Of a stretch of DNA of 64,000 nt, positions 12,001-18,000 are shown piece after piece. Source of the DNA: Rhina ancylostomus. Its lineage: Eukaryota. The stretch spans positions 24,013,494 through 24,077,493 of the forward strand of contig JARFYF010000029.1 of assembly GCA_030265395.1 (NCBI GenBank), written 5' to 3'. The position numbers are program-made. Numbering within the stretch: position 1 is the first letter of the stretch; every line of letters starts with the position of its first letter.

Positions 12001-15000
12001 CCTCTCTGGGGAGTGGAGGGTGTTCAGTTATTAATGACCGCTGAGCAGGCAGCGCGATGTCAATGTGACAACTGATAGTGTGAAGCATGCACCACTAAGG
12101 ACTCTGGAATCGAGAGGAAATATAAAGGAGCTTAGCAGTATTTTCATTCACTGGAATGTCAGTCTCGGTTAGACAGCAGATTGCAAACAACGCAAACAGA
12201 TGCTTATTGTTAGAACACAGCTCAAATATTGCTGCACATCAGAGAGCAGAATACACGCTTATGGAAACCAATAGTATTTAAAACAAACCCTCGATCACAA
12301 GCTCAGAGGAAACCAAGCAAACTGAGATAGATGTATTAGGATATTAAGGTAAGCTGAATTATTTTTTAAACTTTGATGCTTCATGCTGAATTCTGCTTTG
12401 CACCTTATTTCTCATATTCTTATGGCTAAAACATGTGTACAAGTGAATGCGTGCTACATTAATTACACTCTGGTCTTCTGAATCCCTCTCCCAACCAGAA
12501 GTATAATGACAATTTGAGATGTGTAAAGTTCTGATACTTTATTTGCAATGATATGAAAGGAAAATTCCTCTCTGTCAAATAAGAAAATGTAACACTGAAG
12601 TTAAAATTAAGAAAAGACAGTCAGTACAAGTACTGTACTAAAGATAACTGGGGCTTTCATATAGCTAAAACACTGCAGTGCAAAGAAAGCTGTAGCATGT
12701 ATACCCAAGCTAACTGTCTTATTTTTACCAGAAATCAACATGGGGCAGGCAGCATTTTTTTTAAATGATGGACTAGGGTTAAAGCCTCTGATCTTGTCCT
12801 TGGTATCAACAGAACCCATCATAGAACTGAAGCAAATTAGCCTATTACAAAAGCTTCTTGACATTTTGTTTCACTACATTAGCAGGTTGATAGTTAATGA
12901 TCATCTTTAAAACCAAAAATAGGGCAGTTTCAAAATCTGATTACAAACACATTTTGCAGAAGGGTATGATAAGTGTGAATAACACTGCATACACCAAATA
13001 CTTACGACTTCCACTGATAATGAAAAAGATCAAAATAGGGAAGATTTTAAATAGGCTTTCATAGCAGGTGTGATTTTTCTTGTGTGTATTTTGTCAGGGT
13101 ATCCAGAAATCATATTGTGATGCATTGCGATGTACCAACAGAAATGTTTTTGTTTTCCAACAGATAAATATTGGTAATAAAGCAACACAAAGACGCAAGT
13201 AGCAAGAAACTGGAGTAGGCCATTCAGCCCCTCATTCCTGCTCTACCTCAGTGTCACTTTCCTACACTAGCCTCATGTCTCTTCATTCCCTTAACATCCA
13301 AAAGTGTCCATAATATGCTGCTATTGGCTTGTTCTCCACAACTGAATAATTAAAGACAGAGCATTGTTTGAGTGAGTCTATAATGACAATAAGGACATTG
13401 CCTTTCTGCAGTTAGTTCTAATAAACATTCCACTGAATTAGCCTTTCTCCTAAATTTGTAGCCCCTTAATGCTGTAGGGCAATCTTATTGGCAGGGAAAT
13501 TAATATAAAGTCCAAAGCAACATTTCATACATCAATGTAGTGGCCAGGGAGGAGGCGAAGCAATGTTAGTTGTCTCTTTAACTTTAATGAACCACAGCCA
13601 CTTCCATTTTCCATCAGGTTGTCAACAAGGCTTCACTTTCATTCAAACCATTTTTGTTTAAGGTTTTAAATGCATATCGAATGCAATCAAGCAGGACAAC
13701 ACCGATGCTTCTGTAATTGTTATCATTGAGTGTACATATGTGAACAGTAGTGGGTGGTATACACATGGCAATAAGTTATTGCCTTCCCCCATTATGCTGT
13801 AGCAACCGTAAGACAACAGCTCCTATGCTGACAGCTGAGAAATGATTATGTATAAATTCTTCAATGGGAAACTGCTTTCCAACTAGATGCTAGCTATGGT
13901 CTTCCAAAATGTCACAATTGGATGGGAGAAACCTCACAGAAAGGTTAAATCAGGGGCTTCAGGGGGTGATCAGTTCATTGCGGTTTAAGCAGCGTTGGCA
14001 AGCACATCTCTGGTGCAGTCTTGCTGGTGTGAGTTAGGTGTGTTGGCTACTCCCTGGGCCCTGGCAAGGATGGTGGATCTCCAACCCGCCATAGTCATCG
14101 ACAACGGATCAGGTCTGATCAAATCTGGCATCTCAGGGGATAAAGAACCTCGCTCGATCTTCAACAACATGATCGGCAAGCCTCGGCAGAAAGCACTCAT
14201 CATCGGAGCCGGCCAGAAGGACTTCTACATTGGCGAAGAAGCCCAAGTCAAGAGAGGAGTGCTGTCCATCAAATACCCGGTGGAACACGGCATCGTCACC
14301 TCCTGGGATGACATGGACAAGATCTGGAGGTACGTGTACGACAATGATTTGAAAATCAAGTCAAACGAGAGGCCGGCTCTGCTGACCGAGGCTCCCCTGA
14401 ACCCACTTGCCAACAGGGAGAGGATGTGCCAGATCCTCTTCGAGGCTTTCGACGTCCCGGCCATGTACGTGGCCATCCAAGCGGTGTTGGCTCTCTATGC
14501 CTCCGGCAGGACCACAGGGTGTGTGATGGACAGTGGAGACGGGGTGACCCACACGGTGCCCATCTACGAGGGTTACTGCTTGCCCCACGCCGTGCTGAGG
14601 CTGGAGCTGGGAGGTAAGGACCTCACCGAATATCTGGTGAGGATCCTGACCGAGAGTGGGGTCTCCTTCGTCAGCACAGCGGAGAGGGAAATAGTGAGGG
14701 ACATCAAGGAGAGGCTGTGCTACGTGGCTCTGGACCCGCAGGCAGAAATGTGCAAGAAACCTTGCGAGGTGGAGAGAGACTACAAGCTGCCTGATGGCCA
14801 GATCATCAAGATCCACAACCAGAGGTTCCGCTGCCCGGAGACCCTCTTCATCCCGGCCAACATTGGCATCGAAGCTCCGGGCATTGATAAACTCTGCTTC
14901 AACACCATCATGAAGTGTGACATCGACCTGAGGAGGGATCTCTACGCCAACGTGATCCTGGCCGGAGGTTCCAGCTTGTTCCCGGGGATGGACGAGAGGA

Positions 15001-18000
15001 TGCTGAAGGAGATGACCAAAATGGTCCCCACCGGCACCCCGGTCAAGGTGTGCGCTCCGCCCGAGAGGAAATACTCGGTGTGGATGGGAGGCTCCATCCT
15101 TTCCTCCCTGTCGGCTTTCCAGCAGATGTGGATCACGGCCTGCGAGTACAAGGAAGTTGGGGCTAACATCGTGCACAGAAAGTGTTTCTAAAATCTTGTT
15201 TTAAAAAAGACAACTGTATTTTAAAAAGACAATAAACGTACTGACAAAATAAAAGTGCCAGATTGACGTGAGAAACTGACGGCTTTATAATTTTTGCATA
15301 TTTCTCAGTCATTTTAGTATACAACAATTAAAATAATGTTTAAAAGAAACCTACTTGTTTTAATTAGCTCTCTCTGCATTTCAGAAAAGGCCTTGTAGAA
15401 GATGTTCTTCTCTCCAGAGATGCTGTCTGACCTGTTGAGTGTTTCCAGCATTTTATACTTCCATTTTAAAGAATCGTAATTGTGCTCAAGACCTCTCTGA
15501 ATCACACCTATCAGAGAATTTTTGTATTTCTCCCTGTGCATTTGAGCACACGGCTGGCAGAGCCAAGCAGTCAATGGTATAACATTTACAGCACAAGACA
15601 GCTGCATAGAATTATGTAACAGAAGCTCTTCAGCCCATTGTGTCTGTATCAGCTCTTTGGTGCATTTTTTTCAATTTATCCTTTTCCCCTGGTTTTTCCT
15701 TTATAAAGTATATCCATATTTTGGGGGGAAACTCCTTCCATTGCTCTCTCAGCATATTCCAGGTCACAGCAACTTGCCAAGAAAATTTCTAACCTAAGAT
15801 TTTTCTTTTGTCCAAATAGTTTAACTTGTCCATTCTCATAACCAGCCCTATTGCCAGTAATTTTATCATTATACCTACTCTGTCCAAAATGATGTTTGCA
15901 CCTCCAGAAGCGTAGAAGGAGTTCAATATATAAATAGCATAAGGGTAGAATGTTTTATCTTAACCCAATCAATGACATACCAACAACTGTATATATTTGA
16001 AATATTGTAGCTTTAACAAAATGGAATAACCTGCCCCCCCCACCTCAGGCATTCTGCTGAAATAGTTGTTATGAATTTTTTCCATAATCAATTATTCTTA
16101 ATCATATTATTATCTTAGGCCATAAATGAAGACCATTTTTATCTCTTGTACTGGTCTGAGTGAAATTCATAGTGCTGGTTTTTCTCTACCTCCCTTTATG
16201 GCATGACTGAGCCATGATTTTTCAGCAACACCAATGAAGTCATCTCTATATTAAAATAAAATCTGAAACTAGTTTTGCTTTGAATGGTTAACCTAGACAA
16301 GGGGAGTATGTGTCTAAGAAGTAGTAAGTTGGGGGTTATATATTTACATAACAGTGATTGTAGGGGAGTAGTGTTCTTACTGTGAAATTTGTATACTATT
16401 TATTTATGTACCTTATTTTAATAAATCAGCTCTTGGTCTGAAAACTGTGCCTGTTTTCATAGAATGCTTTACAGCCCACTCTTCATAAAGGGAGAAGTTT
16501 TGTTGTGGAACATGTGATATTTCAGTAGTTTATTTATGGAAGAATGGTTCTCAGGTACAATCCCTGGATCATGTTATTGATTAGATAAATACTCCAGATT
16601 ATAAGCACTAGGGTGTCCACTTACAGGAATGAGAATTTCTGAAAATCTGAAAATGCAACAGCCTGGTTGATTTATTGCAAAAGCACAGGCATGGTTAAAA
16701 ACAGAAAGGCTTAGTCCATTACAGTCACAGACTGACTGTGCTTTATGGAGTTGTTGTTACTACTGTTGTGGTCACTCCAACTTTTGACATGCTTGTGTGA
16801 GAAGACCAATTAAAATATGTTCTGGACAATTGTAGGAAGTGTGTGTTGCATTTTCTGATTTCAGCCCTTTATTGGGAAAAGGATTTGATTAAATACATTT
16901 TCTGACCACAAGTAGAAACTGCGGGGTTTTAAATGCTCACGAGCAGCCAGTGAAGCTATAGGGATTTTCTGGTGCTTTTCACAATCTCAAGATGCCATGA
17001 ACCAGTATTCAATCAATGAACTACTTTTAAATTGTACTTCCTGGGACAACGTATGTGGTCACATCGACATTCCGTGAACAATGATGTGGTATGATCCGAT
17101 AATCAGTGAAGGGATAATTAATTGACCAGGAAAAAGGAGTGAAGCCAAATGTAGGTCCTCAGAAGTGGGGGGAAGTTATAATTGGGAACTAAGACATGGC
17201 AGAATGATAAAACAAATACTTTGTATGTCTTCACACAGAAGGACACAAATAGTCTCCCTGATATGTCAAGGTCTAAAGAGAGGGAGGATCAGAAGGAAAT
17301 CAGTTATGTTAGTAAAGAAACACTGCCAAGGCAATTAATGGAACTAAACACTAATCTGATAATCTATATCACAGAGTTATAAAGTCACAGAGTCACATAG
17401 CAATTTACAGACTAATAATCATAACACTAGAAATGGGGAAGATGTGAGAATCTCTTCTAAAGTATGCAATGACAGAACACTTGGAATGACATTAATAGGA
17501 TTAGACAACATCAAAATCAGTTTATGAAAGGAAAATCATGCTTAACAAACCCACTGGAGTTTTTATCAGAGATGTGACTAGTAAAATAGATAAGGGAGAA
17601 CCAGTGGATGTGGTATATTTGGACTTTCAGAAGGCTTTTGATAAGGCGCAAAATGAAAGCACGTGGGATTGAGAGTAATATGCAGGCATGGATTGAGAAT
17701 TGATTGACAGACAGGAAAAACAGGGTAGGAATAAATTGGTTCCTTTCTCGGTGACGGACAGTGACAAGTGGGGTGTCACATGGATCAGTGCATGGATCCC
17801 AAATGTTCACCATATATACCATTGACTTGGAGGGTGGAGCAGCAAACAATCTGCTGGAGGAACTCAGCGGGTCGAGCAGCATCTCTGGGGGGAGAGGAAC
17901 TGCCAATGTTTTGGGTCGAAACCCTGCATTAGGTTTCTTGGATGATGGAATTGAATGTAATATTTCTAAGTTTGTCAATGACATAAAACTGAGTGGAATT

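What the first reader, a model, noticed from the sequence alone, without database searches (positions are those of the whole stretch)
14070..15191. Intact intronless ACTRT3/Arp-T-like gene at the LRRN3 locus of a probable elasmobranch
Seen: a complete 373-aa single-exon actin-fold ORF with a Kozak ATG and AATAAA signals, about 40 kb upstream of the LRRN3 CDS on the same strand. Known: mammalian ACTRT3/ARPM1 is a spermatid actin-related protein located near MYNN/TERC, not near LRRN3, and LRRN3 is nested in IMMP2L. Inference: this is a separate Arp-T paralogue or old retrogene, possibly a second gene nested in the same IMMP2L intron. It may bear on the origin of testis actin-related proteins before the cartilaginous/bony fish split.
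Basis: partly seen in the sequence, partly recalled or inferred. Interest (0 to 1): 0.7.

Follow-up and report, generated by a model that had tools for sequence, protein, structure and literature searches.

The report
Intronless divergent actin gene beside LRRN3
An intact single-exon gene for a divergent actin-like protein sits about 40 kb upstream of LRRN3; it is real and is not an ordinary actin, but whether it belongs with the mammalian sperm-head actin-related proteins could not be tested here.

Summary
There is a 373-codon ATG-to-TAA frame at 14070..15191 (+), with A at -3 and G at +4. AATAAA lies 40 and 57 nt after the stop. The frame is 40,140 bp upstream of a 709-aa LRRN3-type CDS on the same strand.

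The protein matches Pfam Actin end to end (E 1.5e-125). It is only 63.7% identical (235 of 369) to alpha-skeletal actin and scores about equally against animal, plant and amoeba actins. It is therefore a divergent actin-like protein, not a conventional isoform. It keeps the ATP-pocket residues, His73 and the C-terminal IVHRKCF. It has lost the acidic N-terminus and changed the D-loop and hydrophobic plug.

New here: the ORF is a compositional island. Its GC3 is 0.79 and CpG o/e 0.65, against GC3 0.35 for LRRN3.

Assignment to ACTRT3 or the Arp-T group, the IMMP2L host intron, the taxon and expression were untestable, because no vertebrate sequence collection was open. Papers already report actrt3 in catfish and ACTRT3 protein in sturgeon sperm. 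I rate it a new member of a known kind, of moderate interest.

The parts
14070..15191 (+). Single-exon CDS of a 373-aa divergent actin-family protein (stop codon included)
   Evidence: ORF. Pfam Actin E 1.5e-125, full length. 63.7% identity to alpha-skeletal actin with one 2-aa gap. GC3 0.786, CpG o/e 0.65.
13940..14069 (+). GC-richer leader directly upstream of the ATG; putative 5' UTR (inferred)
   Evidence: GC rises from about 0.38-0.40 to 0.47-0.56 from about 13900-13950 onward. No ATG lies between 13922 and 14070. The transcription start was not determined.
13851..13856 (+). TATAAA motif 219 nt upstream of the ATG; candidate TATA box (weak inference)
   Evidence: Motif position. No promoter test for eukaryotes was available.
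15231..15236 (+). First AATAAA, 40 nt after the stop codon
15248..15253 (+). Second AATAAA, 57 nt after the stop codon
55332..57461 (+). Neighbouring single-exon LRRN3-type CDS (709 aa); context, not part of the actin-like gene
   Evidence: ORF. Pfam LRR_8, I-set and fn3. Atlas top 4 listed clusters are named LRRN3 at score 1.00, with LRRN1 clusters at 0.99. GC3 0.354.

Best explanation
This is a real, selectively maintained, intronless gene for a divergent actin-family protein. It is an 'orphan' actin-related or actin-like protein of the same grade as the mammalian Arp-T/ACTRT proteins, not a cytoskeletal or muscle actin isoform.

Shown: the frame is intact and the actin fold is assigned by full-length homology. 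Identity to conventional actin is about 64%. The nucleotide-pocket residues, His73, the W-loop and barbed-end cleft residues and the C-terminal IVHRKCF are retained. The acidic N-terminus is lost. The D-loop is substituted (M44I, M47A among others) and so is the hydrophobic plug (F266N). There are 12 cysteines, against 5 in the aligned alpha-actin.

Inferred: the protein binds ATP/ADP and ligands of the barbed-end cleft such as profilins. It does not behave as an ordinary filament subunit or myosin track. It most likely acts as a scaffold subunit in male germ cells, as ACTRT2 and ACTRT3 do between nuclear envelope and acrosome in mammals.

Origin (inferred): a retroposed or otherwise duplicated copy of a GC3-rich actin-family parent. 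Its codon composition is not in equilibrium with this AT-rich locus.

My sub-confidences: real constrained gene 0.85; not a conventional actin 0.95; member of the ACTRT clade 0.4; germ-cell function 0.45.
For: The ORF and its signals are. Pfam Actin is end to end. All 60 PDB rows shown are conventional actins, at 572 bits (alpha-skeletal), about 570 (beta/gamma), 566 (C. elegans) and 563 (Dictyostelium), against a tblastn self score of 773.

My hand count on the alignment gives 235 of 369 identical, and 79 more marked '+'. By subdomain it is SD1 95/141, SD2 19/37, SD3 64/104 and SD4 57/87. Kept in the alignment: D11, G13, S14, G15, K18, H73, Q137, D154, G156, D157, G158, H161, Y169, K213, E214, G301, G302, K336 and 369-375.

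Neutral point-mutation drift of the ORF down to 64% identity leaves the frame open in 2 of 1000 runs, with a mean of 6.1 stops. This argues for constraint if the parent was a conventional actin.

Composition: GC3 0.786 and CpG o/e 0.65, against LRRN3 GC3 0.354 and background GC 0.375, CpG o/e 0.18. There are 12 Cys and the pI is 6.27.

Function of the mammalian proteins: ACTRT2, ACTRT3, ACTL7A, ACTL7B and ACTL9 form a perinuclear-theca complex (abstract), and ARPM1 pairs with PFN3 (passages). ACTRT3 and PFN3 proteins are reported in sturgeon sperm and its medium (passages).
Against: No tool result places the protein with ACTRT proteins rather than as an independent actin offshoot. The Atlas returned only generic actin clusters. 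No PDB chain beat actin, even for the most divergent 109 residues (60 of 60 rows shown are actin).

There are no expression data, no orthologue and no dN/dS. The drift test says nothing if the parent was already divergent and the copy is young.

The unrelaxed GC3 and CpG content could mean recent arrival, which allows an unconstrained copy. Upstream of the leader, CpG o/e is only 0.29, so there is no separate promoter island.

The D-loop changes are hydrophobic for hydrophobic, so polymerisation cannot be excluded. The single-sequence AlphaFold model failed (mean pLDDT 33.8) and adds nothing. The roles I assign to residues are recalled from the actin structural literature, not taken from a call.
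Confidence: 0.55

Rival explanations
1. A young, still-open processed copy of an already divergent actin-like parent gene located elsewhere in the genome. It would be functionless or not yet tested by selection.
For: GC3 0.786 and CpG o/e 0.65 sit in a locus where the resident LRRN3 CDS has GC3 0.354 and the background CpG o/e is 0.18. The GC-rich block ends exactly at the stop codon. A two-state relaxation sum allows only about 0.08-0.20 GC<->AT changes per synonymous site since arrival if the starting GC3 was 0.85-0.95. The CDS has no intron. Poly(A) signals would travel with an mRNA copy.
Against: There is no A-rich tract after the poly(A) signals. There are no flanking target-site duplications: the only exact 11-mer pair, at 13600 and 15457, does not abut an A tract, and by my own estimate about 1.5 such pairs are expected by chance in 3.5 kb. 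tblastn found no second actin-like piece in the window. The frame, the start context and every nucleotide-pocket residue are intact.
Confidence: 0.2
2. The direct orthologue of mammalian ACTRT3/ARPM1. Either it was moved to the LRRN3 neighbourhood in this lineage, or the mammalian gene moved, and an intron was gained or lost.
For: It is a divergent actin of nearly the same length (373 aa; mouse ARPM1 is 369 aa). Genes named actrt3 exist in ray-finned fishes, so the family is older than mammals. My recollection of the human protein suggests shared C-terminal features; this is a lead only and was not tested.
Against: The mouse gene was edited with guides in exon 1 and exon 2, giving a frameshifting deletion, so its CDS appears split. 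Here the CDS is uninterrupted. The only neighbour in the window is LRRN3. Catfish actrt3 is listed in the same sex-determination region as slitrk3. From memory, SLITRK3 lies near ACTRT3 on human 3q26, which hints that the true orthologue keeps another neighbourhood. The 64% identity to actin is higher than the identities among the mouse ACTRT paralogues, 43.7-65.8%.
Confidence: 0.15
3. A conventional cytoplasmic or muscle actin isoform.
For: The best matches in the PDB are conventional actins. The C-terminus and the ATP pocket are conserved.
Against: Identity is 63.7%. The scores are nearly equal against vertebrate, nematode, insect, plant and amoeba actins. The N-terminus is not acidic. There is a 2-residue deletion and 8 extra cysteines. 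There are no introns. From recall, conventional actins are roughly 90% identical across animals and fungi.
Confidence: 0.02
4. An assembly artefact or foreign DNA joined into this contig.
For: There is a sharp compositional step at both ends of the gene.
Against: No N run lies within 3.4 kb on either side. The leader and the 3' UTR grade into local sequence. A local interspersed repeat family has a copy 220 nt downstream.
Confidence: 0.02

Closest known systems
Conventional actins (alpha-skeletal ACTA1, cytoplasmic ACTB/ACTG1)
   Same: The fold is the same over the full length and the size is almost the same. Nucleotide-pocket residues, His73, the W-loop, the barbed-end cleft and the C-terminal IVHRKCF are kept.
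   Different: Only 235 of 369 residues are identical. The acidic N-terminal stretch is replaced by MVDLQP. The D-loop has 4 of 11 identical residues and the plug has F266N. There are also T303S, M305L and Y306F, a 2-residue deletion at actin 230-231, 12 Cys against 5, and no introns.
Mammalian ACTRT3 / ARPM1
   Same: It is a divergent actin-family protein of about 370 aa. In mouse it is a spermatid perinuclear-theca protein that pairs with PFN3 and other testis Arps. The same kind of role is inferred here.
   Different: The mouse CDS appears split over two exons, and here it is a single exon. No sequence comparison was possible, because no ACTRT sequence was available from any open tool. The neighbour here is LRRN3.
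Mammalian ACTRT1 / ACTRT2 (Arp-T1 / Arp-T2)
   Same: Actrt2 is intronless. Both are testis-enriched actin-related proteins of the sperm-head cytoskeleton.
   Different: Relationship untested. Mouse ACTRT1 and ACTRT2 are 65.8% identical to each other and 53.2% and 43.7% identical to ACTRT3. How this protein compares with them is unknown.
ACTBL2 (expressed retrotransposed actin gene)
   Same: It is an intronless actin-family gene that is transcribed and translated, with relatives reported down to cartilaginous fishes (passages).
   Different: ACTBL2 groups with beta-actin as an additional actin isoform. From recall it is about 90% identical to beta-actin, far closer to actin than this protein.
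Drosophila testis-specific Arp duplicates (Arp2D, Arp53D, D-ActL1-3)
   Same: They are lineage-specific actin or Arp duplicates, some retroposed and intronless. [quoted passage not shown] They are an analogue for how such a gene arises.
   Different: Their origin in insects is independent, and Arp2D derives from Arp2, not actin.

Membership tests
Actin family (Pfam PF00022) | Full-length match to the family profile above the curated cut-off | tested here: met
   419.5 bits against a cut-off of 27; residues 5-373 on profile positions 4-410 of 410.
Conventional actin | Very high identity to other conventional actins (about 90% across animals and fungi; figure recalled) | tested here: not met
   235 of 369 = 63.7% to alpha-skeletal actin (hand count). 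Scores of 563-572 bits against all conventional actins, against a self score of 773.
Conventional actin | Acidic N-terminal stretch | tested here: not met
   The N-terminus reads MVDLQPA, with one acidic residue.
Conventional actin | Nucleotide-pocket residues and His73 | tested here: met
   D11, G13-G15, K18, H73, Q137, D154, G156-G158, H161, K213, E214, G301, G302 and K336 are all identical in the alignment. T303S, M305L and Y306F are conservative changes. Residue roles are recalled.
ACTRT3 / ARPM1 orthologue | Groups with ACTRT3 in a phylogeny or is a reciprocal best match | not testable with these tools
ACTRT3 / ARPM1 orthologue | Conserved neighbourhood (human MYNN/LRRC34/TERC side of 3q26; recalled) | tested here: not met
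   Within 64 kb the only other recognisable gene is LRRN3-type, and 20 of 20 other ORFs of 100 aa or more had no Pfam hit. Caveat: the window is short.
ACTRT3 / ARPM1 orthologue | Gene structure as in mouse (coding sequence over two exons) | tested here: not met
   The mouse gene was edited with guides in exon 1 and exon 2, giving a frameshifting deletion. Here there is one uninterrupted frame colinear with actin.
ACTRT3 / ARPM1 orthologue | Spermatid expression and profilin-3 binding | not testable with these tools
   No expression data and no profilin sequence of this species were available.
ACTRT1 / ACTRT2 (Arp-T1/T2) | Intronless coding sequence | tested here: met
   The frame here is uninterrupted, and mouse Actrt2 is described as intronless. 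This feature is not specific to the family.
ACTRT1 / ACTRT2 (Arp-T1/T2) | Groups with ACTRT1/2 in a phylogeny | not testable with these tools
   No reference sequences were available.
Canonical Arps (Arp1, Arp2, Arp3 and others) | Closer to an Arp subfamily than to actin | tested here: not met
   All 60 rows shown are actins. The cytoplasmic actin chain of dynactin entry 5adx is listed, but no row among the 60 is named as an Arp. The other 101 of 161 matches were not shown.
Processed retrogene | No introns where the parent family has them | tested here: met
   The alignment with actin is colinear without insertions. That vertebrate actin genes carry introns is recalled.
Processed retrogene | Poly(A) tract after the 3' end and flanking target-site duplications | tested here: not met
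   There is no A run downstream of 15231 or 15248, and no convincing flanking direct repeat. These could have eroded with age.
Processed retrogene | Composition foreign to the insertion site | tested here: met
   GC3 0.786 against 0.354 for LRRN3 and 0.375 GC in the background. The boundaries are sharp.

The most novel reading that the evidence does not exclude
Arp-T-type orphan actin-related genes predate the split of cartilaginous and bony vertebrates. This copy would be a lineage-specific, germline-expressed retrogene lodged beside LRRN3, and probably a second gene nested in the IMMP2L intron. Its GC3 and CpG content would be held far from local equilibrium by germline hypomethylation or by selection, after a burst of adaptive protein change.
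Probability: 0.25. Interest if true: 0.55.

Novelty: new member of a known kind. Interest (0 to 1): 0.35.

Why it matters
[quoted passage not shown] Genome annotation and proteomics have since named actrt3 in channel catfish and ACTRT3 with PFN3 in sturgeon sperm. I found no study of the family's origin in the library: 'actrt' with 'shark' gave 3 papers, all unrelated by title, and 'actrt' with 'lrrn3' gave 0. A constrained Arp-T-grade gene in a cartilaginous fish would push sperm-head actin-related proteins back to the jawed-vertebrate ancestor. It would also give a non-mammalian system for asking what they do. If it is only a lineage-specific actin retrogene, it is a routine example of testis-biased gene birth.

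Tried and rejected
1. Atlas search with the actin-like protein. The three listed clusters scored 0.98 and carry generic or mislabelled actin names. It cannot separate Arp-T from actin.

2. Single-sequence AlphaFold2. Mean pLDDT was 33.8 and pTM 0.24, so the model is unusable. I ran no fold search on it and did not spend the second job, because I had no homologues for an alignment.

3. PDB search with the most divergent 109 residues (222-330), to surface any solved Arp-T chain. All 60 rows shown are actin, the best being pollen actin at 124.7 bits.

4. Search for a second actin-like fragment in the window by tblastn. Only chance hits appeared, with E of 6.6 or more.

5. Target-site duplications and a poly(A) tract. 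None were convincing.

6. The 279-aa antisense frame at 14364..15200 (-). It has no Pfam hit. In 217 of 1000 synonymous-codon shuffles of the ORF, the longest antisense open run reached or exceeded the 276 codons seen within the ORF itself. It is a by-product of GC3-rich codons.

7. Rfam over the window: 0 matches.

8. Twenty other ORFs of 100 aa or more: 0 Pfam hits. IMMP2L exons would be shorter than that, so this does not test the host-intron claim.

9. One paper search was badly framed, with min_terms too low, and returned nothing about actrt3.

10. I did not run the one genome-contig scan. That collection holds only bacterial and archaeal genomes and cannot place a vertebrate actin paralogue.

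11. I sent no complex-prediction job, because the report makes no binding claim that a pass would change.

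
Full report
**Observation.** The window holds one ATG-started open frame at 14070..15191 on the + strand, encoding 373 aa and ending in TAA.
- The stop-to-stop frame opens at 13989 and has no earlier in-frame ATG.
- The start context is gcaaggATGG, with A at -3 and G at +4.
- AATAAA occurs at 15231 and 15248, which is 40 and 57 nt after the stop.
- From the background base composition, a 400-codon open frame is expected about 5e-8 times in this window.
- The nearest N runs are at 9419-9851 and 18681-18780, so the gene lies in uninterrupted sequence. 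The N runs were left alone.
- I do not take this window for human.

**What the protein is.** Pfam Actin (PF00022) matches residues 5-373 against profile positions 4-410 of 410, at E 1.5e-125.
- Against PDB sequences, 161 distinct chains match at E of 1e-10 or better. Only the best 60 are shown, and all 60 are conventional actins.
- The scores are 572 bits for alpha-skeletal actin, about 570 for beta/gamma, 566 for C. elegans, 565 for Drosophila 5C and 563 for Dictyostelium. The tblastn self score is 773 bits.
- I counted the printed alignment to alpha-skeletal actin by hand. It has 235 identical residues of 369 aligned (63.7%), 79 further positions marked conservative by HMMER, and a single 2-residue gap at actin 230-231.
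- By actin subdomain, identity is SD1 95/141, SD2 19/37, SD3 64/104 and SD4 57/87.
- The near-equal distance to animal, plant and amoeba actins, together with 64% identity, excludes a conventional isoform. The figure that conventional actins are about 90% alike is from memory.
- The 109 most divergent residues (222-330) also found nothing closer than actin: 60 of 60 rows shown are actin, with 149 chains matched.

**Residue anatomy.** Positions come; the roles of residues are recalled from the actin structural literature.
- Kept: D11, G13, S14, G15, K18, H73, Q137, D154, G156, D157, G158, H161, the W-loop IYEGY-LPH, K213, E214, G301, G302, K336, and the last seven residues IVHRKCF.
- Cleft: of 11 residues that line the barbed-end hydrophobic cleft, 10 are identical. 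The exception is T351A.
- Changed: the acidic N-terminus, now MVDLQPA. The D-loop at positions 40-50 has 4 of 11 identical, including M44I and M47A, although the replacements remain hydrophobic. The hydrophobic plug is changed (Q263I, S265A, F266N). Also changed are T303S, M305L and Y306F, and K113L.
- Cysteines: the protein has 12, against 5 in the aligned actin. Four are shared and eight are new. The pI is 6.27.
- My reading is a nucleotide-binding actin-fold protein with an actin-like barbed-end face and altered pointed-end and N-terminal surfaces. That pattern suits a scaffold or partner-binding subunit more than a standard filament subunit. This is inference.
- The single-sequence AlphaFold model failed (pLDDT 33.8) and was not used.

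**Evidence for constraint.** I mutated the ORF at random (points only, no indels) until identity to itself fell to 64%. The frame stayed open in 2 of 1000 runs, with a mean of 6.1 stops. If the parent was a conventional actin, the divergence was therefore not neutral. The test says nothing if the parent was already divergent.

**A compositional island (new here).**
- The ORF has GC 0.565, GC3 0.786 and CpG o/e 0.65.
- It holds 58 CpGs, of which 38 straddle codon boundaries and 17 lie in NCG codons. CCG makes up 10 of 21 proline codons.
- The LRRN3 CDS 40 kb away has GC3 0.354 and CpG o/e 0.35. The rest of the window has GC 0.375 and CpG o/e 0.18.
- The GC-rich block runs from about 13940 to 15190 and ends at the stop codon.
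- A two-state relaxation sum gives the following. Starting from GC3 0.85-0.95 and drifting toward the local equilibrium, only about 0.08-0.20 GC<->AT changes per synonymous site can have occurred. That is about the same as the roughly 0.20 per-site nonsynonymous distance to conventional actin.
- An in-place history from a conventional actin parent, with neutral synonymous sites, would therefore need dN/dS of about 1 or more. That clashes with the open frame.
- Three ways out remain, and they are unresolved: the parent was already divergent and the copy is fairly young; GC3 and CpG are actively kept, by a germline-unmethylated island, codon selection or biased gene conversion; or there was a burst of positive selection.

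**Retrogene hallmarks.**
- The CDS has no intron.
- There is no A tract after the poly(A) signals.
- There are no convincing flanking direct repeats. The one exact 11-mer pair, at 13600 and 15457, does not abut an A tract, and by my estimate about 1.5 such pairs are expected by chance in 3.5 kb.
- There is no second actin-like piece in the window.
- The 279-aa antisense frame has no Pfam hit. It is expected from the codon usage, because 217 of 1000 synonymous shuffles reach the observed run.

**Surroundings.**
- The 709-aa CDS at 55332..57461 (+) carries LRR, Ig I-set and fn3 domains.
- Its four best listed Atlas clusters are named LRRN3 at score 1.00, with LRRN1 clusters at 0.99. The margin is small, so this is a lead consistent with LRRN3.
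- The CDS starts 40,140 bp after the actin-like stop, on the same strand.
- I could not look for IMMP2L exons, because no reference sequence was allowed and the exons are short.
- Twenty of 20 other ORFs of 100 aa or more have no Pfam hit. Rfam found nothing.
- Short interspersed repeat families are present, and one copy lies 220 nt downstream of the gene. They look to me, from memory only, like cartilaginous-fish repeats. The taxon stayed untested.

**Comparison with what is known.**
[quoted passage not shown] The complex anchors the acrosome to the nuclear envelope (PMC13752377, abstract and two passages).
- ARPM1/ACTRT3 pairs with PFN3. Its dN/dS is 0.23 across rodents and primates. The mouse protein is 369 aa, and the gene was edited with guides in exon 1 and exon 2 (bioRxiv 10.1101/2025.03.27.645694, passages).
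- Actrt2 is intronless, with dN/dS 0.079. Mouse ACTRT1/2, 1/3 and 2/3 are 65.8%, 53.2% and 43.7% identical (bioRxiv 10.64898/2026.06.05.730397, passages).
- Against that, channel catfish has a gene named actrt3 in its sex-determination region, where slitrk3 is also listed (PMC9171582 and PMC9770954, passages). LRRN3, IMMP2L, DOCK4, MYNN and LRRC34 are not mentioned in the first of these papers, nor LRRN3, IMMP2L or DOCK4 in the second.
- Siberian sturgeon sperm and its medium contain proteins identified as ACTRT3 and PFN3 (PMC11291920, passages).
- ACTBL2 is a precedent for an expressed retrotransposed actin gene, with relatives reported down to cartilaginous fishes (PMC7870945, passages).
- In print I found nothing on this gene. 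'Actin-related protein T3' with 'shark' gave 0 papers. 'Actrt' with 'shark' gave 3, all unrelated by title in the listing. 'Actrt' with 'lrrn3' gave 0.
- Supplementary tables were closed. Those of the sturgeon and catfish papers may hold accessions that bear on orthology.

**What stayed unchecked.**
- The one open genome collection holds only bacteria and archaea, so I did not scan it.
- As a result there is no phylogeny with ACTRT or ACTL proteins, no search for a parent gene, no cross-species synteny, no dN/dS and no expression evidence.
- The ACTRT label therefore rests on grade of divergence, gene structure and analogy, not on a membership test.

**Verdict.** This is a real, intact, intronless, divergent actin-family gene beside LRRN3, most likely a germ-cell actin-related protein. 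Whether it is an Arp-T paralogue, the ACTRT3 orthologue, an independent actin retrogene or a young copy of one of these is open. I rate it a new member of a known kind, with interest 0.35.

Noticed in passing
window 55332-57461 (+): Single-exon LRRN3-type CDS of 709 aa with LRR, Ig and fn3 domains. Its GC3 of 0.354 is equilibrated with the AT-rich locus, which makes it a useful internal control for the actin-like ORF.
   Followed up: partly
window 15413-15466, 26564-26617, 26806-26859, 31021-31074: A 54-nt interspersed repeat family (61-80% identity to the reference copy). One copy lies 220 nt downstream of the actin-like stop. From memory it resembles common cartilaginous-fish repeats; no tool here could test that.
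   Followed up: no
window 9856-9907, 24209-24260, 43618-43669: A second interspersed repeat family of 52 nt. Two of its copies lie directly beside N runs, which suggests that the masked or gapped stretches are repeat-associated.
   Followed up: no
window 35892-35952 / 37217-37277 and 37125-37177 / 37962-38014: A 61-nt direct repeat pair at 93% identity and a 53-nt inverted pair at 87%, all within about 2 kb. This may be a local duplication or a transposon with terminal repeats.
   Followed up: no
window 50001-52000 and 24001-26000: Two 2-kb bins with GC of 0.429 and 0.433, above the 0.36-0.38 background. The first lies 3-5 kb upstream of the LRRN3 CDS and could be its promoter or a 5' exon.
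   Followed up: no
window 14364-15200 (-): A 279-aa antisense open frame over the actin-like CDS. It has no Pfam hit and is expected from GC3-rich codon usage (217 of 1000 synonymous shuffles reach it). It is not a gene.
   Followed up: yes
window, 15 N runs (1852 nt in all): The runs are 10, 100 or 118-433 nt long and scattered through the window. None lies within 3.4 kb of the actin-like gene. They were left untouched.
   Followed up: no
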